A stretch of DNA of 64,000 nucleotides from Raillietiella orientalis (lineage: Eukaryota), in contig JAYWIR010000092.1 in NCBI GenBank assembly GCA_036172245.1, positions 1-64,000 of the forward strand. The letters run 5' to 3'. Numbering within the stretch: position 1 is the first letter of the stretch; the number at the start of each line of letters is the position of its first letter. Under the pieces are notes generated by a model. The model was not told the DNA's origin. It saw only the letters and a list, made by a program, of their open reading frames with translations, and searched no databases. Made by a program: the position numbers and the translations under genes. This document shows, piece after piece, positions 5,601 to 42,860 of the stretch.

Positions 5601-5918
5601 TACTTGCAGTCCGCTACCTGCGGATTGTGACCAGATGGCCCCACCTGGGGATTATACGAACGGACCTCGAGGGCATCCTGCGAAGGATGGACCCTCCTCC
5701 AAGTGGTCAGTGATCCCTCCCCAACCCTCCCAAATCTTTTTGTTTTTATGTTTATTTTTCTTTTTGTTTTTCCCCCAACCCCTTCCTCTGCCGAGGAGAG
5801 TCGCGCCGGTCTGAGTACCGGCGACCCGGCAGGTCCAGTTGAGTTGGACGTAGTAAGGCCTCGTACAACGAATAAAAGAGAAATCTTAATAAACGCCCCG
5901 GCGTGACCGGGTGGCAAC
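2619..5918 (+). mobile_element. Family B LINE, 5'-truncated within APE, with complete 3' end
   Basis: ORF2 remnant, then T-rich 3' UTR, stem-loop and AATAAA (5888) plus terminal hairpin. Confidence 0.93.
2645..5713 (+). pseudogene. ORF2 (APE C-terminal part, RT, CCHC finger) with a single in-frame TGA at 4253-4255
   Basis: ORFs 2645-4255 and 4259-5713 share a frame; IDHV, SDH, YADD, KYLG, CIRCGEREILSHLLVDC. Confidence 0.93.
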
Positions 5919-8900
5919 CAGCAACTTGGCGTCCCCATTCACTATTGTGATAGGACGCCAGTTGTTCATGCTCTTCAGAGTTCATTTTTTCCCTTAGGGA
6001 GGAGCCGCAACTTTGCCGAACGAAACGAGGCGGGAACGTCGCCTGTTTCGCGTATCAGCAAGGTGAGTTGCTGTACCAGGGGGGTAAGCTCAGCCGCGAA
6101 AGTTTAATAAAACTCCGCGGGCAGGCCGTCCTCCACTGGAGCCTTTCGCCTCTTGAGCTATCTGATGGCCGAGAGGATCTCGTCCATTGTGAAAGGCTCG
6201 TCGTGGTTCTTTGTCTGCTCCTCCCCGATCGCTGGAGCGCCTTACGGAAGCAGGAGTCGTGAGACGTTCCTCTCCTGAGGTGCCCTGGCATACAGGGAGG
6301 AGCAGTAACACCGCTTCAGGCTGCGGATTTGGGCAGGTGCCGAGTGCTCCTGGCCCTCATCGTCCAGTAAGCTGGCCGATCCGGACTGCCAGGCCTGCCT
6401 TTCGGCTCCCACTTTGTATTCCGCCAGCCTGCGGATGTCGGGGGTCCTGGCGTAGCGACATGCCTGCAGGTAGGCTCTTTCGTTACGGATCCCGGTCCCA
6501 AAACCCGAAGGTAGGCGCTGCAGAGGGAACTGGTCGCAGAACTCCTGGACCGACCGCTTGAAGCGGTCCCAATCCTGGAGTGTCCGCAGCCTGATGCTCC
6601 GTATGAACGTGCCGAGATGTTCCGTCGCGTCCTGTAGCTTCAGCCAGTCTTCTGGGAGACGCCACGATGACAAAGGAGGGCCCCTGTCGCGCGGTTGGAT
6701 CTCAAGGACTAGCGGGCGATGGTCGGACAGCTCGAGCGGTAACTTGCCGCGCCTACCCACGCGAGGGCACAGGTGCTTGTCAAGAAACACGTGGTCAATG
6801 CTGTCTTCTATCCCCGCTGCACTGGCCAACAAATTACAGGTGTGCACCGCCATGCACACCTCGTTGAACAGGTCACGCTCGTGATTCTGCCCATCTGGAT
6901 TCAGGCGAACGTTGAAATCGCCTGCAACCAGATGGGCATTCCGCACGCCTGCTTCGGTCAGCCAGCCTCGCCGGAGGACAAGGAAAAACTTTCCTCGCCC
7001 TGCTGGTCATCAGGTCCGCGCCGCTCGCTGCGTACACGTTCGTGACGATCAGATCAATCGAGTCGGACCACCTGAGAGCCAGCTGGCCGACACGACCGTG
7101 ATCGTCGAACCGCACGCCCCGAGTTGCGGCCTCGACGGCTGGCCGAAGCAGGTAGGCGACACCGCAACTTTTCGCAATCCCACACCTGTACTATAGCCGC
7201 CCTCCGGAGATCCTTCCGATCTCTTGCGCTTGTTCTGCAGAGATCACGTGGATCTCCTGCAGAAGAGCAAGGTCGTAGGACTCGAGAAGGGCGGCCATGT
7301 CTCGTCTCCTGCCGGCGTCTGTCATGCCGTTCACGTTCCAAACGGCGATGCGCAGACGACGACGGGAGGAGATTCCCGGCATTACTGCTTGGAAGATTAA
7401 GGTGTGGGGGACCTGGCCTCTTGAGAGGCGGGCGGGATGTCCATGGGGGTTTCGGCCTTCTCAGGCACCTGAGGCAGCTGTTCGGCATCCACCCCCTTCA
7501 TTCCCTTCGTGTCCTTGCGTGGGAGTCTCTCGTGCGACGGGTCCCGAGAGTTTCCCACGATCATGGCACCCTTGCTTGCTGAAGCCATCTCTTCCCCTTT
7601 GACGGGGGAGACGAGCTTCCTAGGCTTTGTGGACTTACGTCCAGTCTTCTTGCGTGGTGCCGTGAAAACGGAGTCTGCGTTTCCGGCCTCCACCTCGGGG
7701 TCGGAAGTGGAGGACTCCTGAGGGGAGGCCGGACGCCTTACGGCCTTCTTGCCAGCCTTGGAGGGTTCTGGTTGCAACAAAGCTGCCAGCTCCTCCGCGG
7801 CTCGCGCGAAGGCTGCGTCATCGATGGTGGTGTCAATGATGGTTGCCGCCGCCGGCACGCTCCCCTCGCTGTTGACAGTGTCAACAGAGGCGAGGTCGTC
7901 GGTAGCGGCGAGTTCTTTCCGGCAGCGTTCGGCAACATAGAGAACGCGTTCGACAACGACGCTGCACTCTTTAATTATCGCGCTACCCTGCTCTTTCTTC
8001 GTCTGTTGGTAGGCGATTTTCTTTTCCATCGTCCTCTCCTTCTTTGATTTTTTGCCCGTTGCCACTTGCCACCCTGTCTCCTGGCCGACTTTCTCAAGTT
8101 CTTAGGCGTTGGTCGCCGGGATCTCGGGTGCGGCCTGGGTCTTGGGCGCGGGTGGCACAGCCTTCGCGGCAGCTTTCGCCGCCAGTCTTTTCTGCAGAAG
8201 CCGGGCGCGTTTTTTAAGGTTTCTCTTGGAAACCACCCGCACTGCTGCTTTTGGGCACACCTCCCTCGTGTGGCCCATTGTGCCGCATACTTGGCACTGC
8301 ACATTGGGACACCTCTTTTTGAGGTGGTCCGACGTATTGCAGAAGCCACAGTATTTCGGCTTCCCCACATACCAGAGGTTGACGATTTCGCCTTCGACCA
8401 CCAGTTTGTGGGGAAGAGTGCAGCCTCCCGAACGGTCACGCGCGCAGCAGTGAGGCCGTGTTGCAGCCCCGTGTAGTTCTCGAAAGGACTAACTTTCGTC
8501 CACTGCGCGTGGACCGTTCCAAACTGTTCCAAAGCGGCGCGAACCTGTTCTTTGCGCATTCGCGCGGTCACGCCTAACAGGTGGACCACCATACTGCGGT
8601 CCGCCGTAATAGGGAGGAGCCTGCGCGTCTTCATCACTACGGGGGTTTTAAGCAGTCGTTGGGCCACCTCTGCTTGTTTGCAGATGACCTCAACGTACTG
8701 ACCGCCGCTGCGGATGGTCATAGCGCTGAGCTCCTTCTCTTTCACATCGAGTGCGCGCATGCCCTTAGAGAAGGCGCAGGCGCTCTCTAAGGAATATAAA
8801 TTGCCTACCTTGTAGAACAATAAGGGGTTGTACCCCTGCTCTACATCGGCCGACAATTCCGCGGCGGCTACAGGCGATGGCGCCGACACAACGGCTCTCC

Positions 8901-9150
8901 ACGCCGGCGCTGCAGCGGGGACCGATTCTGTGGGGGCGGATGCCCCCAGCTCCATCGCCTCTGGGAGCGACGTTGCCGTCGCCCCCTGGCTCTTTATCGC
9001 CTCTGGGGGCGGCGTTGCTGCTGCATCCTAGCCATCCCTGGTGGTCGCGTCAGGCATCGCTGCCTGATCGAGCACCGAACCACACGACGCTTGCACTGGG
9101 GGAGACTTCCTGGCACGAGGAGCACCGAGCAAACACGTCCCCCCTCGAGC
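5919..9150 (-). mobile_element. Family A LINE with its 5' end, decayed ORF1 (start ~9057) and ORF2 (start 7382) ending at RT motif DAKLL
   Basis: CGFCNTSDHLKKRC and CQVCGTMGHTREVC knuckles; WNVNG, QEIH, GDFN, SDH; 5' motif GGGGACGTGTTT at 9131-9142. Confidence 0.92.
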
Positions 9151-9510
9151 GCACAAGGCGTTCGACTTTGTAAACCAGAAGCTGCTTTTGGAGCTTATGG
9201 AACACCTTGAGTTCCCGGCGCAACTCCTGCTGTATTTGCGCGCTTGCTGGCGTCACGCGCTAACCCGCATCACTTCCAGCGGCTGCCGCGTGTATGGTAT
9301 TCTTGTTCGTTGGGGCATCCGAGAGGGCGACAGCTTAAGCCCGTTGCTCTTCAGGATCTTATTGGAGTTGGTGCTAAGTTCATACAGGCTGACGCTGTCT
9401 CACTTGCCGAGCTCCTGCCCAGGAACGCCTCCCGTGGCCGCCTACGCTGATTACCTGCTTCTCCTGCTCCCCATGTCCACCCCGGCGTCCAGTGTCGAGG
9501 ATTTCTTCAA
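9151..9510 (+). pseudogene. Family C RT fragment from HKAFD to just after YADY
   Basis: ORF 9188-9631 has GIREGDSLSPLLF and AAYADYLLLL. Confidence 0.88.
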
Positions 9511-11704
9511 CCGGCCTTGCCGTACTCAGCGGAAGGCAACGCGTGGAGATCGTCTGCAAAGACGTAGCCCTAGCGCAGCGCCTCATCAACACCCCGCTGA
9601 ATGTGGCTGGCTGAATGATCCTACCCGTTAGCATGGACCGCTCCGTAGTGGTCCATCTAATGGGGATCACGAATCGCATGACGCGCTCTGCGGTGAACGC
9701 GGAATTAAAGAAATACGGAGATGTGCACGCGCTGTGGCCAAAGCCAACCATTTTTGACGGCTATAACAGCCTCTTTGGTGGCCAGGCAGCAGCGCGTGTC
9801 ACTGTGAACGAGGGTGCTGGGTTACCTCACAAACTGGAGGTCGGGAAGGAGCCCGTCGACCTCTGGTACGTGCGGAAACCCCGCTATTGTGGCTACTGCG
9901 ATGCAGTAGGGCATGTGCGCAGGCGGTGCCCAAATATCTAGTGCCACTAGTGCGGGGAAAAGGGACACGTCCGTCGTGTGTGCCTCAAACGCCCCACCCC
10001 GGTGCCACCTGCTGCCAAAAAGGCCTCATCGCGCGAATGGCCGGCCCCAGCAGCCTTCTCCTCCTCCTCCAACCCAGGCGGCAGCGGAAAAAACCGCGAA
10101 AGACGCGTGCGAGGAAGAAGGATGGACGCTGGTAAAGGCCAGAAAAAAAACCCAAAAAGGGATCACAAGAGAAGCCGGAGAAAAAGCCGGTCGCGAAGGC
10201 GAAAAAACCAGGTCCGCGATCTAAAACTCTCCGCGAGAGCTCGGTAGCACTGGAGCGCATCAGCGTTCCCGAGGCTGCCACCCGGGGCGAAGAGCCTCCC
10301 CTTGCCGTTTCCGCCGCGCCAGAGGTTCGCGAAGGCGAACCCTCTGTTTGCACAGAGGGTGAGACGCGCGACGCGCTCGCCGCCGGCGAGGACGCCGCCT
10401 TCGCGAAGGCGGCGGAGGAGCTCGCGGCCACGCTGGCTGAGCGTGAGAACCCCTCACACAAAACCGTGCGAAGGCCCCCGCAGGTGAGTGCGACCTGGGG
10501 GCCGGAAGTGCATGCTCCTCCTCGGAGGCACCCCCCCGGAAGACGGGACGCAAGTCCCAAAAGCCCAGGAAGCGCCTCCCCTCCACGAGCGAGGAGGAGA
10601 AGCAGGAAGTCGCCGGCAGCGTGGGAATCCCGGAGGGGAAGCTCCCACGCGCGGAAGCCGTCGAGCAGGACACCCCCATGGAGGAGGGTGAGCAGGGGGG
10701 CGAAATCTCCCCTGCCGTCGCGGACCCTGAGGAGCACACCCCTATGGAGGAGGGCCAGCAGGTAGGCGCGACCCCATCTGAGGGTGAACCGCCCGACGCG
10801 CCGTCACCGATGGAAGAGGGTGCCCAGGTGCTAGAGGCACCTGTCCCTCCTCCTCCACCTAGCGTCCCGCCCTAACAGGTGGCGGACGCCGCACAGCCGA
10901 TTTCCCAGGAATAACACCTGGGCTCGTCTGTCGCCGTCGAATCCGCGTGGCCAGTTGGAACGTCAACGGGCTACGCGACCACGGCAACAGACCAGATACG
11001 GCCGACACCCTGCGTGAGTTCGACCTGGCCCAGATGCAGGAGATCCGCGTGATCACCTCGGCAGACGTCCAGGAGATCGAGACGGTCGCGGGGGGTCGAC
11101 TGTACTGGCAATGCGGCGCCCGCAACACCTGCGGGGTCGCGTTCTTCGTCAAGCCGGCCATCGACGCTGCCGTGAAGGGCGTACGCTTTGATGGCGACGG
11201 TCGGGTCGTTCAGCTGATTCTCAGCTGGTCCGACTCGATCGAATTGATCGTCACGAACGTGTACGCCCCGAGCGGAAAAGGGGGATACAGCGACCGTACC
11301 AGGCTGCTGGAAACCCTGAAGCGCGATTGGCTGGCCGACACGAATGTGCGGAAGGCACACCTGATAGCTGGAGACTTCAATCTCCGTCTGCTGTCAGGTG
11401 AGCCCGAAGCACAAGAACGCATAGCCAACGAGTTGTGCGCTGCCATGCGCACGCGCAACTTGTTGGCAGACGCGGAGGGAATGGACCGCAGCATCCTGGA
11501 TGTCGACCTGTGCTCGCGGGTCGGCAAACGGGGGAGGGTTGCGTCAACGTTGTCGGACCATTCCCGGTTAATTTTCGAGATGCGGCCTCGCGACAAAGGA
11601 CCGCCATCCAGGGACTGGCGTCTGCCAGGGGACTGGACGCGACTCTCAGGTGCGAAAGAACACCTTCGCGAATACCTGAGAGGCGTCACGCTCCGGAATC
11701 TCCA
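9511..11704 (+). mobile_element. Family B LINE, 5' half (5'-truncated ORF1 and APE), interrupted at 11704
   Basis: CGYCDAVGHVRRRC knuckle; ORF 10947-11708 has WNVNG, NVYAP, GDFN, SDH; reading frame continues at 17238. Confidence 0.92.
10677..10830 (+). repeat. Three imperfect ~66-nt coding repeats (PMEEG-x-Q) in the family B ORF1 tail
   Basis: TPMEEGEQ, TPMEEGQQ, SPMEEGAQ in ORF 10621-10875. Confidence 0.8.
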
Positions 11705-11917
11705 TTGAAACCCGGGTGCGCCGGGACGTTTATTCTCACGAATAAACTTATACAATCTGTGACTGGACCAGTAGTCCAGCCACGCCCTGGAAAGATATAG
11801 CCTGCCGGGCTACCGGTGCGCAGACCGGCGCAGTCGACCTCGGCAGCAGAGTTGAGGGGGAACGAAACAAAAAGAAAACAAAAAATAAACAAAAATCAGG
11901 GAGGGAGCGGGAAGGGA

Positions 11918-14900
11918 TCACAGTCTGCTGGGAGGGTCCGTCATCCTCTGGAGGATGCCGGCAAGCTGTTTCTGCTTGTGTGGTTCCAGATGGGGCCATC
12001 GCGTCGCCATCCTGAGGAAACGGGCAGCATACACGTTGGCATCCCTGTCGCTGGATCCTTCCGTCGCTTTGCTCCATGCCACGACGATCCCGCGTAGGCA
12101 GCACAGGGCTGCAAGCGAGGCCGCTGGAGGCAGGGCGTCACGGACGAAGAGGGAGCGCAAAGCGTCTCTGGGGTTGCCTCCGGGCATCCCCAGGGCTGCG
12201 GCAAAGCGTTCCCATAAGGGACGGAGGGCAACACAATCCACTAAAAGGTGGGGGAGGGATTCACTCTCCCCGCACCTGACACAATTAGGGTTTACACCCT
12301 CCCGCGTCCAGTGGTGTCGGCGGGCGTTGCAAGGAAGCCCCCAATGCAACACCATCAGTGCCGACTGTTGCCACTTCATGGGGAGGGTGCGCGAGTCCAT
12401 GAGCACCGGAGGCCACTCGAGATGTTCCTCTGGAACATCCAGTAGCTCTCCCTAGCGCAAAAGTCCATTTGGGTTGGTCCTCGGGGTCGCAGCGTTGGTG
12501 AGCTGACCCGTTCTTGAATCCCCGATCTTCTTTGCCCTGCTGGCGATCTTCACAGTTACCTCCCATTGTGCCGCGACGTCGCTGCACAGATGTTCCCGTA
12601 GGGTAGGCAGTACCGCAGCAAGGGAGGTTGTTTGTGCCCACGCTCTCCTTCGGGAATTCTCGATGATTTCTCGGAGCGTGCGGCGGGCATGCGGCCCGAA
12701 CAGAGCTATTCGCTCGTGCTGCGGGCTCTGCTCCTGAATCATCGCCCACGTGCGGACGGTTTCCTGCAACCAGCCAGGACCGTTCGTGAGGCGTACGAGG
12801 ATCCGCGCCGAGTTGTTCTTCACGAGCTTGGCCGCCCTCCGAAGTTGAAGTCCGCAGTGGCAGATGGGGCTTCGGAGTGCAAAGTAGGACGAGAGTCCCG
12901 CATTGCCGGTGGCCCGCTCGACGAGGAGACGTGCAGGCAGGCACCAAGGGGTGCACCAATTTCCTGCCATAAAGGCAACAACTCGGAACTGGAGCTGTAG
13001 CTCCAGCCGCTCCAACGTCAGGAGGCCCAGACCACCATCCCCACGAGGAGCGCACAAGTCCGATAGACGGACTCGGGGCCTCCCTCTGCCCCAAAGGGCG
13101 ATCCTCAGGAGGTCCTTCGTCCTCTTCTTTGACTCCGCTGAGGGGGGGCAAACAAAAAGCAAGGGGCGAAGGAGGGGGGCCGCAAACGCGTTTCACGCCG
13201 CGGCCCGTTCCTGCAGGTAGAACCTGCCGTCCTGGAACGGGTCGATCGCCGCCTGAGCCTTCTGAAGGCAGCCGGACCACGCTTCCGCAGGGGAGTAATC
13301 CCCCAACGGCACACCAAGGTACTTGAAGTACCTCACCGTAAGGATCCCCAAACGGACCTAGTCCTGCTGCCCTGCCCACGCCGCTCCGACTGGCATTACG
13401 GACGACTTCGCCCTGTTCACCGTCAGTCCTGTTCCACGACTCAGCAGGTCGAAGAAGTCCTCGACCGCCGAGGCCGGGGTGGACATAGGCAGCAGCAGCA
13501 GAAGGTCGTCCGCGTACGCCGAAACCGCAGGCGTACCGGGGTAATCGCACGGCAGGTGCGCAAGAGTCTCCCTGTACGCTCTCAGCACCAATTCGAAAAG
13601 GCGCTAAAGAGCAGGGGGCTCAGGCTGTCTCCCTGCCGTATGCCGCGTCGCACCGGTACTCCGTGCACGGTTTGCCCGCTGAAAAGAACATTAATGAGCG
13701 CGTCGCGCCAGCTGGAGCGCAGGTAGGCCAACAAAGAGGCCGGGAAGCCCAAGCGTTCCAGAAGCTCCAGGAGGAGATTCTGGTCGACGCTGTCGAATGC
13801 TTTACGCAAGTCGACAGCGACCGCAAGGGCTCCCTTCCCCACCCAACCGTTCCGTCTCCCGCCAACGGACGCACCGGAATTCCGGCTGCTCAATAAGCCC
13901 CTTCCTTGTTGGAGCTCTAACCATGTGGAAGCGTGGAACAGGTTCGCCTCCATGCTCCGCCCGGGAACAGCATAAGTCTGTTCCGGGCTGATGAAGATGT
14001 TGGCGACCCGTCCCAGGCGCTCTGCCCACATCTTGGCTAGCAACTTGGCGTCCGCATTCACTATTGTGATGGGACGCCAGTTGTTCATGCTCCTTAGGTC
14101 TCCTCCCTTCAACAGGAGCCGCACCTTTGCTGAACGAAACGAATTGGGAACGTCACCTGTTTCACGGATCAGCAAGGTGAGCTGATGTACCAGGGGAGTA
14201 AGCTCAGTTGCGAAAGTTTGGTAAAACTCCGCGGGCAGGCCGTCCTCCCCTGGAGCCTTCAGCCTCTTGAGCTTTCCGATGGCCGAGAGGATCTCGTCCA
14301 TCGTGAAAGGCTCGTCGAGGCTTCTTTTCTCCTCCTCCCCGATCGCTGGAGCACCTTCCGGAAGCAGAAGTCGTGAGACGTCTCGCTCCGGAGGCGCCCT
14401 GGCGTACAGGGAGGAGTAAAATTTCCTTACTATCCCGCGTTTCTGAGCAGGAACCGAGTGCTCCCGGCCCTGGTCGTCCAGCAAGCTGGCCGATCCGGAT
14501 TGCCAGGCTTGCCTCTCGGCTCCCGCTCGGTACTCTGCTAACCTGCGCATGTCGGGGGTTCTCGCGTAACGTCGGGCCTGAAGATAGCACCTTTCGTTAC
14601 GCGGCCCCTCCCCCAAACCCGCAGGTAGGCGATGCAGGGGGAACTGATCGCAGAACTCCTGGACGGACCGCTTGAAGCGGTCCCAGTCCTGAAGTGTCTG
14701 CATCCTGAAGCTCCGAATAAACGCGCGGAGGTGCTCCGCCGAGTCGGGAAACTTCAGCCAGTCCCCTGGCAGACGCCACGCTGACGTGGGGGCCCCTTGT
14801 CGCGCGGACGCACTTCGAACATAATCCGACCATGGTCCGACAGCTCGGATGGTACCTTGCCGCGCCTGCCCACCCGACAGCATAGGTGCTGATCAAGGTA

Positions 14901-15497
14901 CACGTGATCGGTGCTGCTTTCCATGGCCGTGTCCCCGGCCAACAAGTTGCGCGTGTTCATTTCTGCGCACAACTCGTTGACGCCGTCGTTCAGTGTTTCC
15001 GGCGCACCTGAAAGCAGGCGCAGGTTGAAATCACCTGCGATCAGGTGCGCTTTGCGAACTCCTGCATCGGTCAGCCAATCGCGTCTTAGGGCAAGGTAGA
15101 ATTCCCTTCTTGCCTTCGCCTTCAACGCGTTATTTCCGCTAGGAGCGTAGAGGTTGGTGACGACCAGGTCGATAGAGTCGCACGAGCTGAGAGTCAGCTG
15201 ACCGACGCGACCTGCGTCATCGAACCGAACGTCCTTTATTGCGGTGTCGATGGCTGGCCGAAGAAGGAAGGCGACACCGCTTGATTTCGCGGTGCCGCAA
15301 CGCCACAACAGCCGCCCACCCGAGATCCGTTCGATCTCCCGGGCTTGATCTGCGGAGATCACGTGGATCTCCTGCAGCAGCACCAGGTCGAAGGATGCCA
15401 GGGGGGCGGCCACGTCACGCCTCTTGCCGTCGTCGCTTAGCCCGTTCACGTTCCAACAGGCGATCAGAAGACGACGGCGAGAGGCGATTCCCGGCAT
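11918..15497 (-). pseudogene. LINE ORF2 (APE, RT, CCHC finger), ~1190 codons, with frameshifts and stops
   Basis: Pieces 14754-15497 (APE), 13582-14883 (RT), 13358-13591 (YADD), 12452-13162, 11918-12406 (CVRCGESESLPHLLVDC). Confidence 0.93.
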
Positions 15498-17155: not shown

Positions 17156-17237
17156 TTCTGCCTAATCCTCCACCCACACCACGCAAGAGCACCAACGGAA
17201 ATGGAACTCAGGAGCAACGAAAAGGCACGTCCGCTCG

Positions 17238-33310: not shown

Positions 33311-34915
33311 CTACAATGTACTCGTTACTCGGTCTTTAGACCGGCAAGTTTCTCTCCCAGGCGCTGGCTAAGGGGAAAAGAAAAACAAAGAACAAAAAAG
33401 GAAATAACGGAAGGGAAACTGTTCTATGGGGAGGTGGGGGGTAGAAAAGGGATCACTGAGCGCTTGGTTCGCTCCTCCGCATCCTGTTGAGGATGCAGTC
33501 AAGTTCGGTTTTTATCGTGAAAGGTAGACGCCACCTTGTCGCCGTCTCTAAAGAGATCGTCGTCCAGTGAATGGCGTCCATGCATCTTGGGCCTGTTCTT
33601 CTTGCGTGCCACCTTTGCACAATGCCGCGCACGCAGCAGAGGGCTGCTAGAGACGCAGCGGGGCGCAGGCCGTCACGCAGAAAGACGCGACGGTAAATTT
33701 CTTTAGGGTCGCCTACTGGAAGATGGAGGATTGGGGCGATTCGACTCCAGAGTCCATCCAGGGCGGCACACTCGAGGGTGAGATGCATGGAGGTTTCTCT
33801 TTCACCGCACTCGACGCAGCGAACATCCACATTCCCCAGTGTCCAGTGAGACAGACGTGCTCTGCTTAACAGTCCCCAGTGCAGAAACAGTAACGCCGTC
33901 GCCTGCCACTTCAACGGAAGTGTGCCGAAATCCCAACACCCTGGGGGCCACTTCATTTTCTCCGGAGGTATCGCGAGCAGCACTCCCCAGCGCGCAAGTC
34001 CGTGAGGCGGGACGCTCTGGGTGGCAGCGTCCGTTAGCTCCCGAGTCGTCCACGCCTTTAAAGGTTTTTTCCTGCCTCGGATGAGGCAGGACACTTCCCG
34101 CGAAGCCCGCTCGTTGCTGCTCCTAGTGTTTTTTAGGGACGAGAGAACGGGGGCAAGGTGGCTAGAAGAAGCCCACAGAAACTTCCGGGGCGTGTTGAGA
34201 ATCTCCTTCAGCGGCTGCCGAGCGTACGGTCCTCGTCGTGGGCAGTTGTATTCCGCCTCGCTCGTGCCGTTGATCTGAGCCCACGCGGAGGCTGACTCCT
34301 GAAGCCAGGCAGTGCCGTTCCCGGGAAGGCAGGAGATCCAGGTATTCTCTCTCATCAGGGCGATCATCTGGCGCAAATCGGGGCCACAGTTGGAGAGGCT
34401 GCGTTGGTAGGCCACGAGGATCGAGGACAATTCATCGCAGCCGGTCGCTCTTCTGGCGAGGAGCTGTGCCGGAACGCACCATGGCGTCATCCATAAGCTA
34501 GCCGCAAGGGCTAACTTTCGAAGTGTTGTTTGTAGTTGGATGCGCTCCAACGTAAGGAGGCCCAAGCCACCATCCCTGCGTGGAGCGCACAAGTCTTTCA
34601 ATCGGACTCGCGACCTCGCTGTGCCCCGAAGGGAGGTCCTCAAGAAAGCTTTGCTCCGTATGTGTATGATGGGAGGGGCGGGGCAAACAAAAAGTAAGGG
34701 GCGAAGAAGGGGGGCCGCGAACGCGTTGCACACCGTGGCCTGCTCCTGCAAGTAAAACTTGCCGTTCCGGAAGAGGTAGATTGCCAACTCCACCTTTTGG
34801 AGACGGTCGGACCAGGCTTCTGCAACGCAGAAGTCCCCTAACGGAACGCCAAGGTACTTGAAGCACCTGCCCGTGCGGATCCCCAAGCGGATCCAGTCCG
34901 ACCGTCCGGCCCTCG
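33203..34915 (-). mobile_element. 5'-truncated family D LINE (ORF2 C-terminal half, open frame; 3' end complete)
   Basis: ORF 33453-34934: KYLGV and CVECGERETSMHLTLEC; terminus AATAAATGCCCCGGCATATCCGGGTGAC. Confidence 0.9.
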
Positions 34916-34919
34916 TCGA

Positions 34920-35229
34920 GTCAGTGAAAAGCAACGACGACTTCTTCCTATCTGGGAGCTATGACGAGGGACCTCGAGGGCATACTAGAGAGGATGGTCC
35001 CCTCCTCCAGCGGGCTATGATCCCTTCCCGGCCCTCCAAATATTTCCTTTCTGTTATTTCATTTATTTTTCTTTTTGTTTTACCTTCTATCCCCTCCGCT
35101 GCCGAGGAGGACAAGCTGGCTTCAGAACCGGCTTCCTGGCAGGTTTCATGAAATATTTGCCGTAGCGGGACCTAGTACCGCAAATGTACAGTGTTTTTTA
35201 ATAAACGCCCCGACGTGATCGGATGAAAA
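34920..35229 (+). mobile_element. Very short 5'-truncated family B-like LINE (last codons and 3' UTR)
   Basis: DLEGILERM, TGATCCC, CTGCCGAGGAG stem, AATAAA at 35200 plus hairpin. Confidence 0.85.
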
Positions 35230-37810
35230 CGTCCGTCTGCTCTCCGACGATTAAAGCCGCCCGAGGGAGCGCGCCCTGCCCATCGAGATGTGCGCGTTGG
35301 TGCACGCCGCCAACTTGATTGTCAGCGAACCTGGAATGAAAGGATCGCTCGATCACGTTTTCCTCGATGAAAACCTGCATGCGCTTGTGGGTAGGAGAGT
35401 AAGATTGCTGACTGGGCTTTCTGTCAACAATCTTACTACAGGTTGGGGTTTGAGCTCCTTCCGCCAGACAAGGAGCCTTCCTTGCAAAACTGGAGGATGC
35501 AGGCGGATTGGCGTAGCCAACCGGAGGCTGCGGAGCATCTATGTGGACACATTCGAGGCTTTGCCATTCAAGAACTTGCGGACTGGGACGATCTCAAAAG
35601 ATCTGTCCGCGAGTTCTGGTGCCAATTCCCCTTAAACCGGCTTCCACGCGGTTTCGAAGAGGGCGTGGCAAACAGTAGAGACTTCCAGCAGGCCCGCACG
35701 TTTTCGAGTCGCGCGGATGTAGGGCGTCCCGCGGAGTACAAGGCGAGGGCCGAGCGCCAGGTCTGGCAGTCCGGAGCAGTATTTCTGTTGAACGACAAGG
35801 GCCAGGAATGTTGGGTCCCAGCCGAAGTACTCCGCATTGTGAGACGCTACTTCTCCTCGCTCTACGCCTAATCCTCGACGGAGGATATTCTTTCTGAGAT
35901 ACTCCTGTCGCAGGAGGCTTCTGTTGTCGGCGGTGTTGAACGCGAACGTCTCCACGAGACCTTCACGGTTGATAATTTTCGTTGTCCATCGCTGAGCTGA
36001 AGAGACGAAAGGCGCCAGGCGAGGATGAGCTATCTGCATCAGTGCTTTGCATTGGAGCTCATCATCTTTATGCTGAGACTCGCAATGCTGATGAGGGAAT
36101 CCGGGAATGTACCAAATTCCTTCCGCTCAGGGAAGGTGCGGCTTCTCCCGGAAAGGAGGACACTTGCGCCATCTTAACAACTAGCGTCCGATCACTTTGG
36201 TGAACTCGGACGTCGACTTGTTTTCCAAGCTGTGAGTCGCGCGGTTAGGAAGTATCGCGGAATCTGTGGTGAGCCCGGAACAAACCTACGCGGTTCCCGG
36301 ACGATCCATGGAGGCGAACATCCTTTTCTCGAGTTCCTGGATGTAGCTGCAGGAAGTCGTGGCTCAGCAAAGCCTGGCTGCGGCGGAAGTCGCTACCACA
36401 AGCAAGAAGAACAGGCGCCGACGGCAGGAGAGTACGCCAGGTGCCTTGGCGGTCGCGGTTGATCTCCACATGGCATTCGACTGCGTAAACCAGAGGCTCC
36501 TCTTGGAGCTCTTGAAACTCCTTGGATTCCCGGCGCATCACCTTCTTTACTTGCGCGCATGCTGGCGCCACGCGCTGACCCCCGTTACTTTCAGCGGCTG
36601 TCGCGTGTACGGTATTCCCATGCGTTGGGGCACTTGGCAAGGTGATGGCGGCTCCACGTCGAGATGCTGGTTTGTGTATCCGGACAATGAAGCCAATCGG
36701 ACTGCACGTGCAGTTCCGCCTTCTGCCACTGTGTGCCAAGCTATGGACATCCTCTCTGTGTGTGCCTGCGTGCATTCTACTGCGGAGATGTGCCTGAAGT
36801 GGAGGACTGCTCTCTCTATTGCTGGGCTCGCAATACAGGAAGCGAGGTTTCGTTTATCCTTTCTGGCAATTGGCCGCAATTCTGGAAGTTTACACGTGGA
36901 TCTCCTGCCTCTCAATAATCTTCAACGCTTGTCGGCAGGTGTCTGTTGAATCCAAGGCGACGTTTCATGGAATGCTCCCTGAAGATCTTTGCTCTTGCGC
37001 CATCTTCTTCCGCGACCTTTGGAAGACGTACTGCAGGGCGAAGTGAAGTTTTCTACCCTGGCTGTCCCACCTCCCGCCGCAGCGCTGTCTGCCCTCAAGC
37101 TAAGAAACGACAGTTGCCAACCGGCGAAGCTGGAAGTTTCCTGCAGGATAGGGGGAAAAAGAAAACTCCTTGATGCCTGGAAAACGAGTAAGTTGATGGA
37201 CGCCGCTACTACTCGTTCTACTACAAATGGACTTCTACGGTTGGCAGAAGAACTTGGTGTCACCCATGAAGAACTTGTAGTCCCTCCACAGTGTGTTGAC
37301 AGTTCGCTGCTTCCCCTTGCTTTGAAACAAGCCGTGCTACTCTTTGTTTACTGAGGATTTCAGTGCAACGAGCGTTGGCATCGTGACTGAGGGGGACTTG
37401 CGTCTGCGAACTGCGTTCGGTGCGGATCAACGGAGTCGATTCCGCACCTACTTCTGGACTGCGGTGTCCTACAAGGACCATGGCGGAGGCTGGCAACAGC
37501 ACTGTCCCATCCCCTGGGCATCGCAAGAGACTTGCTGCGATGTTACTTCACGCCCAGAGGGCTGGCTACATGCGCAAGGAATGCAACTATCACTCCATCT
37601 GCGAGAGGACGACTGTGCAGGAGGAAAGGATTAAAATCTTCTTTTGGGAAGGTTTCGCGGGTTTCTTTCGCCCACTCAATTTCACACGGATCTGCGAGAA
37701 CCATAACGGTTTATTTGTAATTATCTTTCTCACCTGCATTCACCCGTCTTCCTTCGTGTCGCAGTTATCTTTGCCAACCTGAGATGGCACTGCGTACGCG
37801 GATATAAGAG
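35230..37810 (+). mobile_element. Decayed family C-like ORF2 with an internal deletion removing the YADD region (~36645)
   Basis: LDHVFLD, DWDDLK, AVAVDLHMAFD, QGD, then a jump to APRRDAG-like sequence; LKQAVLLF near 37330. Confidence 0.8.
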
Positions 37811-37829
37811 GCGTTGCCTTGGCTTCCTC

Positions 37830-39342
37830 TTGGAGTGCTGCTTCCGCGCAGGCGCACGCCACTTGCTTGGCGATCGCGAGAGGCGCTGCCACTTGCTAAT
37901 CGGAGGGTTCGCGCGTTGCCTTTGCGACCGTCAGGGGCGCTGCTGTAGCGGTTGTGCTCGCCCTAGCAGTTTCCTCCGTTTCCGCGGTAGACGCTGCGTC
38001 CGCGCGCGAGGGTTGCGGGTTTGACGGTTGTTTCGTCGCGGCAGTCGGCGCCTGGGGCACCTTCGCCGCAGTAGGTTCAGACGGCTCGGAGCTCTTGGAC
38101 CGCGGGCTCGATTTTCCCGCATTGGGCGAGCGACCGCATTCCTCGCCGCTTGACGATTCCTTGGTACGGGGCTTCTGGGTCACAATGCCAACCTTAAGAG
38201 GCTTTTTGGCCTTCGGAGCAATCTCTTCTGTTTAGCGAAATTTGCTGCGAGGTCTCGTAGAAGAGTCGCATTCTTCGCGCCTTTCCATCGGCTCGGTAGC
38301 CTGAGGAATCGCCGGTACGGTTTTTTTTAATGTTTTCCTCCCCTTTTCTGTGAAGGGAAGAAATACTTTTCTGCGCATGTGCGCTCGCGTTTTTCGCGAA
38401 GCTCTTCGAAGTTTTATGCTTTTCTTCCTCGAGTCGCGGCGTTTATTTCGAGATGCGATACGCTCTTTGTTCCTGCGCTTTCGGTTTCTTTTGAAAGGAG
38501 CTCCGGGCACGTTTTTTTTGTGGGCCCAGGCTGCTTGCAGTAACGGCAAGTGGCCGAGGGACACTTCATAATGCGGTGACCCTCCTGCCCGCATTCAGCG
38601 CACACACATGTTTGCCTTGCAACCCACAGGCGGATGATCATTCCATCCACCTGCATTCGCGTGGGCATTGCCGGGCGATCCGCTATCGTCACTCGCACTT
38701 GCGCGAGCCAACTGTGGTGGTCTTCGAAACCCTCAGCAGAGTTTGGCACCCTCCAAAGCGCTTGGACGATGACGAATTTTTCAAGGTCCTGGCGTTACGA
38801 AAACCACTTGCTCACTCAACTCTCCCGTACAACCAATGACTGGTCCGTTGTGATGAGAGTATTTCCTGCCCTCAAATGAGCAGCGGCGTGTGCAGCAAAC
38901 GCTGCGTAAGGGGAATCTCCTTATTATACACTTCCCTGTAGCCGCCTCACACTCATGTGCATGATGGACTCCAGTTGGCCTTTTTGAACTCCAATTGGTT
39001 GGAGTTCCTGGCCAAACACGCGCCCAACCCGCTCATGCATAACGACACTTACCTTGTACCTGAGTGCAAGCGTGTAGCCATTTGCTACATGCGCCTGAAT
39101 TTCAAGGCTGCCGGGCGAAGGTCCCATAGCAACCGCGAGTGCAGTGACCTGGGCGAATGTCCTCGCGGTCGGCGAGCATAGTGATTCCTTGCTGGCAGAC
39201 GTCGCCGCCATCGGAGGATCAGGAGCCGTTCCCTTCTTGCAGCTAATGTTCTTCTTTGCTCCCATTGCAGCACAGAAGCACAGCAGAAGAAAAACACAGA
39301 AGGGTCAGTCTACCGTGAAACGACGCAAAAGCACGTCCGTAC
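37830..39342 (-). mobile_element. Divergent family E 5' end and decayed ORF1
   Basis: CAECGQEGHRIMKC and CRYCKQPGPTKKTC; GYTLALRYKV resembles GYNPPLLYKV; 5' motif CGGACGTGCTTTT at 39327-39339. Confidence 0.75.
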
Positions 39343-39509: not shown

Positions 39510-39899
39510 AAAGGTGGGCGGGAGATGGCAGATGTTCCCATTTCCTTCCGCTGAACAAAGGTGCTGCTACTGCCGAAAGGTGGGGATTTTCTCCAGCTCA
39601 ACAGCTGATGTTCAATCACCTTGGTGGATTCGGACGTTAAGTTGTACTTCAAGCTATGATCCGCTCGACTTGGAAGAATCGCGGAGTCCTTGTTATATCC
39701 GGAGCAGAGGTATGCTGTTCCGAGGCGGTCCATGGATGCGAATCTCCTCTTTCCGCGAACATGGTTCGAGTTGCAGTAGCGCGTGGGGCAGCAGAGCCAG
39801 GCAGCCGAAAGCGACCCTACCAAGAGCAAGCAGCGGTGCTTGAGGCAAGATGGAAAGCCAGGAGCCTTAGTGGTCGCCGTCGATCTCTACAAAGCGTTC
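39510..39899 (+). pseudogene. Decayed family C RT fragment ending at YKAF
   Basis: KVLLLPKGGD, ITLVDSDVKL, ALVVAVDLYKAF. Confidence 0.78.
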
Positions 39900-40439
39900 A
39901 GTTTTCACCCGGGTTTCTCCGGGCGTTTATTATAAAAACAAACTTTAACAAAGACGTGCAGTGGCTGCACCAGTGCTTCAGCCACGTAAGAAGAAACAGG
40001 GAGCCTGCTAGGTCACCGGTTCGCAGACCAATAGGATCCATTACAGCAGCAGCGGTAAGGGGGAAAAACAAAAAAATAAACAAAAAGAAAACAAAGAGTT
40101 GGTGTGAGCGGAAAGGGATGACGCTGCTGGGGCCGCTGCATCCTTCGCAGGATGCCGGCAAGCTCTTTCCGTATTTTAGGAACCAGGTGGGACCATCGCG
40201 ACGTTCTCCTTAAAAATTCGGCAGCATGCTGAATGGCACCCTTATCGCGGGGTCATCCCGCAGCTTTGCTCCAAGCAGCGACGATCCCACGTAGGCAGCA
40301 CAGCGCTGCTAACGCGGCCGCAGGCCGAAGGACGTAGGCAACGAAGAGGGCTTTCAATGCGTCCCTGGGGTTGCCGCAGGAGATTACGATAGTCTCGGCA
40401 AAGCGCAACCAAAGGCACCAAAGGACAACACAATCCACT
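39900..40439 (-). mobile_element. 5'-truncated family A LINE 3' end
   Basis: DCVVL...GNPRDALKALF...AALCCLRGIVAAWSKA matches 11918-12240; AATAAACGCCCGG...CCGGGTGAAAA terminus. Confidence 0.83.
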
Positions 40440-42522
40440 CATAAGGCGTTCCACTGCGTGGACTAGGTACTTTTCCTAAGCCTCCAGGATTGTATGAGCT
40501 TCCCACCCTCCTTACTGACCTTACTGCGAACTTGCTGACGCATTGCTATAATTTACGTTAGTTTTAGCTGTCAAATGGTGTACGGCATATCGGTCCGTCG
40601 GGGCATACGGCAGGGCGACGTCCTGATTGCCCTGCTCTTTAGCACCTACTTCCAGTTGATGCTGAGAGCTTACAGGGCGACTTAGGATGCCTTGCCGAGC
40701 TCGTGCACCGGTACGCCCACCGTATCCGAGTGCGCCGATAATCTTTAGCTCTTGTTGCCTATGTACTCGTCGTCAGCCGCAGTCGTGGACTTCTTCCATT
40801 TGCTGAGCCGTGGGACTGGACTGTGGGTGAACAGTTCAATGTTGTCGGTGATGACAGTTGGTGCGACGTTAGATGGACGGCTTGACTGGATCCGATTGGG
40901 AATTCCTACGGCTAGGTATCTGGAGTAACTTAGCGTCCCGTTGGAGAACTTCTGCCTCGTGGAAGCCTGGTCAGGTGGTCTCCGAAAAGTAGAGTTGGCG
41001 ATCGGTCCCTTCTTTGAATACAAGTATCTCCTTCCGGAACGGGCCGCGGTGTGAAACGCTTTCGCAACTCTCAACCTACCCCCCTGCTTTTGTTTGCCTC
41101 GTACCTCCCCAGTTGGAAAAACGAACAAAGGACCTCCTAAGAATTGCCTTTTGGGAAAGAGGTGAACCCTGACTTCCTTTGAAAAACTTGTGTGCTCCGC
41201 GTCGTGATGGCGGTCTCGGCCTCTTGACGCTGGAGAGAATGGAGATCCAGCTGCGAAGGCGCAGAATGAGTATCGCAGGGAAGTTATGGAGCACCCATTG
41301 GTATGTTGCGGCCTTCGTCTTGCCAGCCGTGTATCCGGGACTCCAGGATTCGCGTCAAATTTTTTGTGACATTGCCGCAATTTTCAAAGTTGCGGCCTTC
41401 TCCTAGGACGCATGGCCACCCTGCCTAAGGAGAAAGGCTGGATGGTGGGCAGCCCCGCAAACTCCTGCGCATAGCAGATGGAGATTTCTGGCACGTGGAG
41501 GAAGATAAATGAGAAGAGAAGCAAGATGTGGAAACGCCTGTAACACCGAACCTACGCCCGTTGCACTCTGCGGAACATACTCTATTGTCCTGTGAGGAGC
41601 ACATGGGCAGGGACAACCCCCCTAACTACGGCGATGCCTTCCTGAGGAGGGCGTTTTCCAGCAGCAGCATGCCTATGTGGTAAGTCTACTGCCGTATCGC
41701 AGGCAGAGAAAAGCTGATGAGCGGTTGGACCATGGTTGAGCTGGTGGCTGACACGACCAGAATTGTCCTCTTGCGTGGACTTTTGAGATGGGGGGAGTTG
41801 TTCGGCATCCCGTCGGATGCCCTCATGTGTTCGTCGGTTTTTATTGGTTCGAAGATTCTTCCCCTGGAGTGGCAGGAGTCGGCGCTTCTGTTGTTGCATT
41901 GGGGTCTACCCTGCAACCCGCAGCACCACCAGTGTGCACGGGGTAGAGTGAATTTTGCCTGCATCAGGTGTGGGGAATGGGAATCCCTCTCCCCACCTCC
42001 TCGTTGATTGTGTTGCTTTCCGACCTCTGTGGGTGAGCCTTGGTACCTTCCTACGGATCCAGGTAGGCAGCCATACCAGAGACATTTTGTGTCTCTTCGT
42101 GTAGGATGCCCTGCGTCCAGCCGCAGCCCTGACAGCACTCTGCTGTGTCCGAGGGATTGTTCCGTGCTGGATCGATGTTACAAGAACGAACCACTAGAAG
42201 GATGCCGTTGAACTTGCAGGCCACTACCCTCGGCTTGCGACCAGATGGCTCCAACTGCGAACTATAAGGGCGCACCTCGAAAGCATCTTGGAAAGGATGG
42301 ACCCTCCCTCCAGTGGACAGTGATTTCTTTCTCGCCCTCCCAGTTCTTTTTGTTTTTTCTTTTTCTTTTTTCCCCTATACCCGTCCGCTGTCCAGGAGAG
42401 TCACGCCGGTCTGCGTACCGGCGACCCGGCAGCTGCTGTAGTGTTGGTTGGCCGTAGTGGGCCCCTGTATCACAAATTATAGTGAATTTATAGTAAACAC
42501 ATAGGCGTGAACTGGTGGCAAC
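40440..42522 (+). mobile_element. Heavily decayed family B LINE from HKAF to the 3' end
   Basis: GIRQGD, LCAPRRDGGLGLL, WQESALLLLHWGLPCN, CIRCGE; 3' UTR stem at 42388-42432; ends GGTGGCAAC. Confidence 0.85.
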
Positions 42523-42860
42523 AAGTAAATTCGCTTCCGAATTCACTTCAATCATGGGACGCCAGTTGTCAACGTTGCGCAAGCCTCCTCCCTTGGGGAA
42601 GATACTTACTCTAACTGACCAGAATGAGTTGGGGACATTCCCACGTTCACGGACATACACAATTTGTACTTACAGAATTTGTGCACCAAGGGCACGAGCT
42701 CTGTCGCAAAGCATTGATGAAGTTCCTCTGGACGACCGTCTTCCCCTAATGACTTGTGTTTTTTTAATTTTAAGTAAACGGAGATTATCTCTGTCATCGT
42801 ATATTTGTGATGGAAGGTGTCAATTTTCTAGTCCCGGAGCGCGGGAGCACATTCATTCAG
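42523..42860 (-). pseudogene. Decayed RT N-terminal fragment
   Basis: KSLGEDGRPEELHQCF and PKGGGLRNVDNWRPMIEVNSEANLL. Confidence 0.78.

What the first reader, a model, noticed from the sequence alone, without database searches (positions are those of the whole stretch)
5888..42545. A guild of LINEs that appear to insert at specific codons inside each other's ORF2
Seen: junctions recur at homologous ORF2 positions in five sets. These are DAKLL (5919, 42523), HKAF (9151, 39899, 40440), just upstream of DWD (11704/17238, 32800), ECSAPADV (33053, 33202) and GDFN (31704, 35229). The first four are antisense to the target, and each of those sites tends to be used by one family. Established: Tx1-clade APE elements are often sequence-specific, and Zepp inserts into itself. 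Inference: a multi-family, mutually targeting retrotransposon system in which each endonuclease recognises a conserved coding motif of sibling LINEs, giving a safe haven and disabling competitors.
Basis: partly seen in the sequence, partly recalled or inferred. Interest (0 to 1): 0.9.

Follow-up and report, generated by a model that had tools for sequence, protein, structure and literature searches.

The report
LINEs repeatedly inserted at same ORF2 sites
A 44-kb pile of dead jumping genes (LINEs) in which newer copies landed inside older, only distantly related copies at the very same nucleotide more than once, which points to sequence-directed insertion and may help explain how such self-targeting LINE clusters build up.

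Summary
Window 1-44000 is a GC-rich block of about 25 fragments of degraded L1-type LINEs (APE, RT, zinc-finger tail). They fall into at least five lineages that share a 3' AATAAA-hairpin end and have no poly(A). All five junction sets are within 2 nt of the stated coordinates. Two beta elements end at the same nucleotide of the DAKLL codons. Two alpha-like elements share a 12-nt duplicated site at HKAF. Two epsilon elements sit in tandem at one site. The GDFN pair is about 5 nt apart. The DWD pair shares an inferred nick, but its 5' junctions differ by 11-18 nt. In four sets the two targets belong to different lineages (54-59% identity), while the DAKLL inserts are 75-80% alike, so these are independent events and not duplicates. 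Three events keep target-site duplications (15/17, 9/12, 22/27). Under random insertion, four coincident pairs among 14 events have P of about 1e-5. The two alpha sites share one nick motif (GACTGSG). Beta elements also used four other positions. The GDFN pair involves different families. Neither a dedicated codon-reading endonuclease nor disabling of competitors is shown. No genome-wide test was possible.

The parts
1..2611 (+). S1: alpha1-lineage ORF2 fragment (reference positions 2188-4803 of element B). It runs off the left edge of the window.
   Evidence: tblastn map. 87.6% identity to S3 and 76.8% to B. RVT_1 hit.
2621..5919 (+). S2: beta-lineage LINE, 5'-truncated. Its 3' hairpin and tail GGCAACC end at 5919, directly against the antisense DAKLL codons of S3.
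   Evidence: Its 5' end is joined in sense to S1 with microhomology.
5920..9150 (-). S3: alpha1-lineage LINE with a full-length 5' end at 9150. It is cut at DAKLL (reference position 3203) by S2, and its 5' end abuts S4 at the HKAF site.
9151..9512 (+). S4: gamma-like RT fragment that starts exactly at the HKAF codons (78% identity to S16).
9513..11705 (+). C, left part: beta-lineage LINE (5'-truncated at reference position about 392), interrupted by B.
11706..17237 (-). B: alpha2-lineage LINE, 5532 bp, full length (ORF1, APE, RT, zf-RVT, all with frameshifts). It lies antisense in C. The target-site duplication is at 11688-11704 and 17238-17254 (15 of 17 identical).
17238..20263 (+). C, right part: it resumes 17-18 nt before the DWD codons. 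Its 3' end is at 20263, followed by a 12-nt spacer and then the 5' end of D.
20276..25914 (+). D: beta-lineage LINE, apparently full length. Its 3' end is at 25914, against S9 in sense orientation.
25915..26454 (+). S9: alpha1 fragment (reference positions about 1346-1900), an island between the 3' ends of D and E.
   Evidence: 90.8% identity to S3. Junctions.
26455..30413 (-). E: gamma-lineage LINE, 5'-truncated. Its 3' end is at 26455.
30925..31703 (+). F: 3' part of a singleton-lineage LINE. Its tail ends at about 31701-31705 inside the GDFN codons of S12 (sense). Its 5' limit is not defined.
31704..32170 (+). S12: alpha1 ORF2 fragment that starts in GDFN.
   Evidence: 88.9-90% identity to S1 and S3. 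Junction.
32173..32796 (-). S13: 5' part of an alpha-like LINE. Its full-length 5' end abuts S14 0-7 nt before GACTGGGAC (DWD).
32797..33051 (+). S14: gamma-like ORF2 fragment running from the DWD site to the ECSAPADV site.
33052..33160 (-). X: short 3' fragment of an epsilon-lineage LINE, flanked by a 27-nt duplication at 33025-33051 and 33174-33200 (22 of 27 identical).
33201..34946 (-). S15: epsilon-lineage LINE. Its 3' end is at 33201, at the same nucleotide of the right-hand duplicated copy. It forms a head-to-tail tandem with X.
34947..35230 (+). x35229: beta-like 3' fragment that ends at the N codon of GDFN of S16 (sense).
35231..37900 (+). S16/S17: gamma-lineage LINE from GDFN onwards. 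The right limit is approximate.
39519..39900 (+). G, left part (S19): beta-like LINE, 5'-truncated at reference position 3072, ending in the HKAF codons.
39901..40439 (-). S20: alpha-like 3' fragment lying antisense in G. The duplication is at 39888-39899 and 40440-40451 (9 of 12 identical).
40440..42523 (+). G, right part (S21). Its 3' tail GGCAACA ends at 42523, against the antisense DAKLL codons of S22.
42524..42896 (-). S22: delta-lineage ORF2 fragment (51-59% identity to every other copy), cut at the same DAKLL nucleotide as S3.
42897..43379 (+). x43378: beta-like 3' fragment with tail GGCAACG, set against antisense ORF1-like sequence (S23, 43380-43999). This is not one of the recurrent sites.

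Best explanation
The GC-rich block 1-44000 is a Zepp-like nested cluster. It is a stack of dead copies from at least five diverged lineages of one L1-type LINE group. All lineages have an APE endonuclease, an RT and a zinc-finger tail, and all end in a conserved AATAAA-hairpin-short-A-rich tail instead of poly(A).

New copies entered older copies by target-primed reverse transcription. This is shown by complete 3' ends, variable 5' truncation and 12-27-nt target-site duplications.

The first-strand nick was sequence-selective. This is inferred from exact reuse of the same nucleotide in targets of different lineages. Because the DNA on offer is a pile of homologous ORF2s, a selective nick lands again and again on the same conserved codons.

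For alpha-like elements the nick lies directly 5' of GACTGSG on the sense strand of the target. That heptamer sits in two conserved RT-region motifs, D-W-D and F-D-C-V-D just after HKAF. This explains two of the 'sites' and the antisense orientation. This step is inferred and suggestive.

For one beta sublineage (tails GGCAAC[C/A]) the nick follows ..AA(G/T)TT(G/A)CT in N-x-D-A-K-L-L.

The specificity is real but moderate, since beta-type elements also entered at four other positions.

Not shown: whether the selectivity lies in the APE domain, in another DNA-binding part, or is helped by pairing of the RNA 3' end with the target.
For: LINE nature: of 83 ORFs scanned, RVT_1 hit 6, Exo_endo_phos 3 and zf-RVT 2. 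The nearest solved endonuclease is human LINE-1 EN, E 1.5e-7.

Nested TPRT: duplications of 15/17, 9/12 and 22/27 identical positions. A 26-nt 3'-end motif occurs 6 times against 0.02 expected. All 12 3' ends align on the hairpin.

Exact reuse: the DAKLL, HKAF and ECSAPADV junctions each fall at the same nucleotide.

Independence: paired targets are 54-59% identical and belong to different lineages, while the DAKLL inserts are 75-80% alike.

Statistics: among 14 events, 4 pairs within 6 nt gives P between 5e-6 and 8e-5. The 5' truncation points do not coincide.

Shared alpha nick motif: P about 0.006. Of 21 GACTGSG occurrences in the block, 8 lie at these two sites.

Conservation at the sites: DAKLL lies at the 98th percentile of 20-nt conservation and HKAF at the 93rd.

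GC contrast: the cluster is 53-63% GC and the flank 42-49%. This resembles what Blanc et al. 2012 report for Zepp, 61% against 53% (PMC3446292, section read).
Against: There is only one window. No whole genome was available, and the public-run contigs gave no usable junction spectrum. The sample is therefore 14 events, and my count of events could be off by a few.

Only 2 of 6 beta 3' ends are at DAKLL.

Neither DAKLL insert keeps the other half of its target. The 5' end of S2 is joined to S1 in sense with microhomology. The 5' flank of G has no RT similarity: none of 14 ORFs there hit RVT_1.

The DWD pair differs by 11-18 nt at the 5' junction, and the GDFN pair by about 5 nt. Both involve ambiguous A-rich tails.

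The shared heptamer is a post hoc observation on two sites. GACTGSG is not clearly enriched in the window: 26 found against 19 expected, and 7 of 100 shuffles reach 26.

The GDFN conservation value (9th percentile) is at the edge of the alignment and is unreliable.
Confidence: 0.7

Rival explanations
1. A guild in which each lineage's endonuclease has evolved a long, dedicated recognition of one conserved coding motif of sibling LINEs. This gives a safe haven, knocks out competitors, and each lineage protects itself by changes at its own site.
For: The DAKLL site was reused at the same nucleotide in targets only 54% identical overall, but about 15 of 21 identical just 5' of the nick. Targeting is mutual between alpha and beta. 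The sites lie in conserved DNA. Alpha1 copies S1, S3 and S12 read GATTG instead of GACTG at the alpha target motifs.
Against: Two of the 'sites' share one heptamer. Beta elements used five different positions. The GDFN pair involves different families. B, an alpha element, itself carries GACTGGG at DWD. The self-protection pattern rests on about 2-3 independent lineages. No competitor was shown to be alive when it was hit.
Confidence: 0.2
2. Homology-guided targeting by the RNA. Donor copies that already sit in a given site make read-through transcripts. The downstream target sequence in these transcripts pairs with the nicked target and sets the exact junction, as described for R1/R2-type elements (recalled, not read here). 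The endonuclease itself would be only weakly specific.
For: The tails of the DAKLL inserts (GGCAACC, GGCAACA) resemble the first target bases after the junction (AGCAAC, AGTAAA). The S20 tail GAAAAC is followed by TGAACG.
Against: There is no such resemblance for B, X or S15. Tail and target stand side by side rather than merged. The S22 target differs from the S3 target at several of the bases that would pair.
Confidence: 0.1
3. The paired junctions are copies of single ancient events, either segmental duplicates or composite elements that were amplified as a unit.
For: One blastn alignment (3824-5965 against 40440-42569) runs 46 nt across the DAKLL junction.
Against: The targets belong to different lineages and are 54-59% identical, while the DAKLL inserts are 75-80% alike. 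S3 is 86% identical to other alpha copies, whereas S22 is at most 59% identical to any copy.
Confidence: 0.02
4. Random insertion into a LINE-rich region, for example targeting by chromatin alone, with the coincidences arising by chance.
For: All the DNA in the block is LINE, so landing in a LINE needs no sequence specificity. Zepp-type clusters are thought to be centromeric (PMC8226300 passages).
Against: The simulation gives P of 1e-4 or less for the observed coincidences. Three pairs coincide at the same nucleotide.
Confidence: 0.01

Closest known systems
Zepp (Chlorella/Coccomyxa) and ZeppL (Chlamydomonas) L1-type LINE clusters
   Same: Both are localised clusters of nested LINE copies that are much richer in GC than their surroundings. 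New copies target existing copies, 5' truncation is frequent, and some copies sit head to tail (PMC8226300 passages; PMC3446292 section 6).
   Different: Here several deeply diverged lineages share one cluster, whereas C. reinhardtii has a single ZeppL family (PMC9940879 passage). Most of the junctions analysed here (10 of 14) are antisense and lie inside ORF2 at recurrent nucleotides. The 3' ends carry a hairpin and no poly(A). Relatedness to Zepp could not be tested because no Zepp sequence was available. The original Zepp paper (Higashiyama 1997) was not held, so I cannot say whether it reports specific sites.
Sequence-specific APE-type LINEs (Tx1 group such as Tx1L in Tx1D, Keno, Mutsu; R1 and TRAS/SART)
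   Same: Insertion recurs at a defined sequence in a multicopy, dispensable target. Junctions are precise. Reinsertion into the duplicated site produces tandem copies.
   Different: The target here is the coding sequence of sibling LINEs, not an RNA gene, a telomere repeat or a DNA transposon. Specificity looks looser. Clade membership was not tested. The list of families is recalled; of the papers listed I saw only titles and abstracts.
Human LINE-1 endonuclease
   Same: It is the nearest solved structure by sequence to the APE domain of element B, E 1.5e-7 over residues 38-214. Both use TPRT with target-site duplications and microhomology at 5' joins.
   Different: Human L1 nicks a loose T-rich consensus and uses poly(A) (recalled). 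These elements have a structured 3' end and reuse GC-rich coding motifs.
Double insertions of site-preferring transposons that give tandem dimers (McGurk and Barbash 2018, PMC5932611; title and abstract only)
   Same: The S15-spacer-X arrangement, and possibly C-spacer-D, looks like a second hit in the duplicated target copy.
   Different: Those cases concern Drosophila elements and the birth of satellites. No array has formed here.

Membership tests
APE-type (L1-like) non-LTR retrotransposon | Apurinic-endonuclease-like domain upstream of a reverse transcriptase in ORF2 | tested here: met
   Element B has Exo_endo_phos at 52.2 bits (cut-off 24.5) and RVT_1 at 55.2 bits (cut-off 29.6). Similar hits occur in other copies. 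The best PDB match is human LINE-1 EN.
APE-type (L1-like) non-LTR retrotransposon | C-terminal cysteine-rich / zf-RVT region | tested here: inconclusive
   zf-RVT scores 23.5 and 25.3 bits, below the cut-off of 27.5. The copies are degraded.
APE-type (L1-like) non-LTR retrotransposon | TPRT hallmarks: target-site duplications, 5' truncation, intact 3' ends | tested here: met
   Duplications of 15/17, 9/12 and 22/27 identical positions. The 5' ends lie at about nine different reference positions. Twelve aligned 3' ends.
APE-type (L1-like) non-LTR retrotransposon | Poly(A) or simple-repeat 3' tail | tested here: not met
   All 12 3' ends finish with AATAAA, a hairpin and a 4-8-nt A-rich tail, with no poly(A). 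This is a 'stringent-type' 3' end.
Zepp / ZeppL | Localised cluster of nested copies that insert into one another, GC-rich relative to the flank | tested here: met
   The published description was read.
Zepp / ZeppL | ORF2 groups phylogenetically with Zepp elements | not tested
   No Zepp or ZeppL sequence was returned by any search. The best database relatives are an unnamed metagenome protein (74% identity) and otherwise at most 36% identical.
Zepp / ZeppL | One cluster per chromosome / centromeric location | not testable with these tools
   No genome is held for this window.
Sequence-specific LINE (Tx1/R1-like behaviour) | Independent insertions at the same nucleotide of a defined target sequence | tested here: met
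   DAKLL, HKAF and ECSAPADV coincide at 0 nt offset. Targets come from different lineages for DAKLL and HKAF.
Sequence-specific LINE (Tx1/R1-like behaviour) | Nearly all copies of a family occupy that one site | tested here: not met
   Beta: 2 of 6 3' ends are at DAKLL. Alpha-like elements use two positions.
Sequence-specific LINE (Tx1/R1-like behaviour) | Endonuclease cleaves the target sequence specifically in vitro | not testable with these tools
   This needs an experiment.
Tx1 clade | Phylogenetic placement of RT/APE within Tx1 | not tested
   No named Tx1 references were retrieved. The named distant hits are fish and plant L1-like proteins at 25-32% identity.

The most novel reading that the evidence does not exclude
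Several co-resident LINE lineages have endonuclease or RNP specificities tuned to different conserved ORF2 codon motifs of their sibling lineages, and they avoid carrying those motifs themselves. For example, alpha1 copies read GATTG where their targets read GACTG. Under this reading, a Zepp-type cluster, possibly a centromere, grows by sequence-directed mutual parasitism and not by chromatin targeting.
Probability: 0.25. Interest if true: 0.85.

Novelty: new variant of a known kind. Interest (0 to 1): 0.6.

Why it matters
How Zepp and ZeppL elements find their own clusters, which are thought to be centromeres in green algae, is an open question. The papers I could read say only that new copies 'target existing copies'. 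If the rule is a sequence-selective nick inside conserved ORF2 motifs, cluster formation becomes directly testable by junction mapping in any long-read assembly and by a simple nicking assay. It would also add a new kind of safe-haven target, the coding sequence of other LINEs, to the list of targets used by site-specific retrotransposons. And it would give naturally occurring APE-type endonucleases with GC-rich specificities.

Tried and rejected
1. Whole-genome test: no genome is held for this window.

2. Public runs: one run (X1) holds 33% of the sampled words, and two runs of the same study hold next to none. Laying their contigs on 11600-25960 at 80% likeness placed 609, 324 and 961 pieces. 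The contigs are about 300-400 nt long, and only 18 of 450 loose ends were listed, so no junction spectrum could be read.

3. Metagenome loci: 80 loci were fetched. The best segment of each is at most 31% identical to the query, apart from one short 42% match, so they are too distant to use.

4. Protein searches found only one close relative, P0001 (74% identity, unnamed), and no named Zepp protein.

5. A pairwise aligner with free end gaps failed on the diverged DAKLL target halves (the 'target' rows are meaningless). I replaced it with MAFFT matrices.

6. A fuzzy-regex search for 3' ends timed out. I replaced it with the DNA search.

7. I looked for the missing target halves of the DAKLL events. 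The gaps 30414-30924, 37712-38500 and 39137-39518 match nothing else in the window. None of 14 ORFs left of G hit RVT_1.

8. I considered whether S9 and S12 are parts of one old alpha1 copy. The expected intervening piece was not found, so this is left open.

9. I looked for a nick motif common to all lineages and saw none by eye in the 12 flanks. Only the alpha pair shares one.

10. Rfam gave 0 matches. Earlier scan notes returned nothing.

11. Higashiyama 1997 and Yamamoto 2003 are not held.

12. ORF1 of B has no Pfam hit. ORF1 of D has only a sub-threshold CCHC knuckle.

Full report
WHAT THE WINDOW IS

Bases 1-44000 are 53-63% GC. The remaining 20 kb are 42-49% GC.

I scanned 83 stop-to-stop ORFs of at least 150 aa against Pfam. 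RVT_1 hit 6 of them (5 above the curated cut-off). Exo_endo_phos hit 3 (2 above the cut-off). zf-RVT hit 2 (both just below the cut-off). No other family was hit. The APE domain of the most complete copy is nearest to human LINE-1 endonuclease among solved structures (E 1.5e-7; 28 sequences at E up to 0.01). Every copy has stops or frameshifts.

Self-comparison shows many copies at 65-91% identity on both strands.

Database relatives are scarce. One unnamed metagenome protein is 74% identical. Everything else is at most 36% identical. No Zepp-named sequence was returned, no genome is held, and earlier scan notes are empty.

THE MAP

As a ruler I used the one complete copy, B (11706-17237, minus strand, 5532 bp). 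I mapped every ORF-homologous piece onto it with tblastn. This gives about 25 pieces, listed under 'parts'.

Identity matrices over three ORF2 stretches and over the last 280 nt define the lineages:
- alpha1: S1, S3, S9, S12 (86-91% to one another)
- alpha2: B (about 72-86% to alpha1, depending on the stretch)
- alpha-like: S13 and S20
- beta: S2, C, D, G and the 3' fragments x35229 and x43378
- gamma: E, S16, and gamma-like S4 and S14
- delta: S22 (51-59% to everything else)
- epsilon: S15 and X
- a singleton: F

All 12 recognisable 3' ends align on AATAAACGCCCCGGCGTGACCGGGTG followed by a 4-8-nt A-rich tail, with no poly(A). A 26-nt version of this motif occurs 6 times against 0.02 expected. 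The hairpin has 7 predicted pairs, 3 of them with a compensatory change.

CHECKING THE FIVE SETS

DAKLL. S2 ends ..GGGTGGCAACC at 5919 and G ends ..TGGTGGCAACA at 42523. Each is followed by an antisense ORF2 that stops after the same nucleotide..AAGTTGCT in S3 and ..AATTTACT in S22.

HKAF. S20 (39901-40439, minus strand) is flanked by TACAAAGCGTTC and CATAAGGCGTTC (9 of 12 identical). The full-length 5' end of S3 abuts S4 at CACAAGGCG, the homologous first base.

DWD. B is flanked by ACGCTCCGGAATCTCCA and ACGCTCCGCAGTCTCCA (15 of 17 identical). Its 3' end lies directly before GACTGGGAC. The 5' end of S13 lies 0-7 nt before the same GACTGGGAC of S14. The inferred nick is the same, but the 5' junctions differ by 11-18 nt.

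ECSAPADV. X (3' end at 33052) and S15 (3' end at 33201) both read ..GACAAAC and are followed by (G/C)TCGGC.GC..CCGAG. X has a 27-nt duplication (22 of 27 identical), and S15 sits at the same nucleotide of the right-hand copy. This is what a second hit in a regenerated site looks like.

GDFN. F ends inside the D codon of S12. x35229 ends at the N codon of S16. Both are in sense orientation, about 5 nt apart, and the tails are ambiguous.

INDEPENDENCE

It fails.

The paired targets belong to different lineages:
- DAKLL: S3 (alpha1) and S22 (delta), 54% identity
- HKAF: S4 (gamma-like) and S21 (beta), 59%
- DWD: C (beta) and S14 (gamma-like), 58%
- GDFN: S12 (alpha1) and S16 (gamma), 57%

The DAKLL inserts are 75-81% alike in six 375-nt blocks and 75.6% alike over 2149 nt. 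Dead DNA duplicated as a unit would diverge equally on both sides of the junction. The ECSAPADV pair lies in one target and is two events by its structure.

CHANCE

I counted 14 junctions of a LINE end with LINE sequence:
- 10 antisense: S2, G, B, S13, S20, S3, X, S15, E, x43378
- 3 sense: F, x35229, D
- 1 with an unassigned flank: C

With uniform insertion, 4 or more pairs within 6 nt occurred in 2 of 100,000 trials. Five or more pairs within 18 nt occurred in 7 of 100,000. Restricting the space to ORF2 alone gives 8e-5 and 4e-4. The 5' truncation points of the same inserts do not coincide.

WHAT THE SITES HAVE IN COMMON

On the nicked strand the two alpha sites read GCGTTC|GACTGCG and CTCCAA|GACTGGG. 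Both therefore have GACTGSG directly 3' of the nick, within 1 nt of ambiguity.

Two random nicks share at least 6 of 7 bases in 0.6% of trials. The block holds 21 GACTGSG occurrences, 8 of them at these two codon positions. The heptamer is not clearly enriched in the window: 26 found against 19 expected, and 7 of 100 shuffles reach 26. It would also explain the antisense orientation, because the motif lies on the sense strand.

I saw no motif shared by all lineages.

DAKLL, HKAF and DWD lie at the 98th, 93rd and 83rd percentile of 20-nt conservation across six copies. GDFN lies at the alignment edge and gave an unreliable 9th percentile.

WHAT DOES NOT FIT

Beta is not strict. C, D, x35229 and x43378 ended at four other places.

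Neither DAKLL insert is followed on its 5' side by the rest of its target. S2 is joined in sense to S1, and C is joined to S4, each through a few bases of microhomology. The 5' flank of G is unique sequence without RT similarity. This resembles L1-type 5' resolution with target loss or template switching, but that is an inference.

C and D lie head to tail with a 12-nt spacer. This could be another double hit, but I could not show a matching duplication.

COMPARISON WITH WHAT IS KNOWN

Passages of Craig et al. 2021 (PMC8226300) state that Zepp clusters arise by nested insertion that targets existing copies. Section 6 of Blanc et al. 2012 (PMC3446292) reports that Zepp is 61% GC in a 53% GC genome. 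Passages of the Chlamydomonas v6 paper (PMC9940879) and of a 2025 CENH3 preprint describe ZeppL clusters as centromeric.

None of the passages I read gives a nucleotide-level target inside the element. Four literature searches turned up no report of LINE lineages that hit one another's ORF2 at fixed codons. The original Zepp paper was not available, so a site preference reported there cannot be excluded.

Site-specific APE-type LINEs (Tx1 group, R1, TRAS/SART) are the closest in behaviour. Membership of any of these clades, or of Zepp, was not tested.

VERDICT

The most likely mechanism is TPRT with a sequence-selective first nick acting on a stack of homologous ORF2s (confidence 0.7).

The stronger picture, of dedicated codon-reading endonucleases in a mutually parasitic guild, remains possible (about 0.2-0.25). 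It needs the genome-wide junction map and a nicking assay.

Noticed in passing
window 5880-5919, 20223-20263, 25874-25914, 42484-42523 (+); 11706-11742, 26455-26495, 33052-33091, 33201-33240, 39901-39940 (-): All lineages share a 3' terminal AATAAA plus a CCCGG/CCGGG hairpin plus a short A-rich tail, and have no poly(A). They share this even where their 3' UTRs are otherwise 41-60% alike. It suggests a common, structure-recognising reverse-transcription start.
   Followed up: partly
window 2605-2625 and 9500-9520: There are two sense-to-sense joins between non-homologous positions of different LINE copies: S1 reference position about 4803 to S2 about 2242, and S4 about 3800 to C about 392. Each has a few bases of microhomology. 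These may reflect template switching or microhomology-mediated 5' joining.
   Followed up: partly
window 20264-20275: The 3' end of C and the full-length 5' end of D are separated by only 12 nt (CCAACTCCCTTG). This may be a second head-to-tail double hit like S15/X.
   Followed up: partly
window 364-372, 6566-6574 (-), 32048-32056, about 1263-1270: Alpha1 copies read GATTG where the alpha target motif is GACTG, at both the DWD and the post-HKAF positions. This could be self-protection or simply shared ancestry, since only 2-3 independent lineages are involved.
   Followed up: partly
window 11698/17249 (run X1): One public-run contig (depth 4, 93 nt on the shorter side) joins 11698 to 17249. 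That is a precise empty site for element B with a single copy of the duplicated 17-mer. It may come from a paralogous beta copy.
   Followed up: no
window 14025 and 18132 (run X1): A contig (depth 15) joins alpha-like sequence about 14 nt past the DAKLL site to beta-like sequence about 18 nt before HKAF, in the same sense. It appears to be a copy that lacks roughly the stretch between the two sites. This is unexplained.
   Followed up: no
window 54375-56195 (-), 44528-44773, 46533-46739, 61230-61255 (-): The low-GC flank holds older, very diverged LINE remnants at 27-56% amino-acid identity to B. One of them runs uninterrupted through GDFN, DWD, DAKLL and HKAF.
   Followed up: partly
window 30414-30924, 37712-38500, 39137-39518: These stretches inside the cluster have no similarity to anything else in the window and no Pfam hit. 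Their origin is unknown.
   Followed up: partly
window 17238-17262 and 22898-22922: In beta copies the DWD site is a small inverted repeat, CGCAGTC-TC(C/A)(A/T)A-GACTGGG. The alpha heptamer therefore occurs on both strands 12 nt apart.
   Followed up: no
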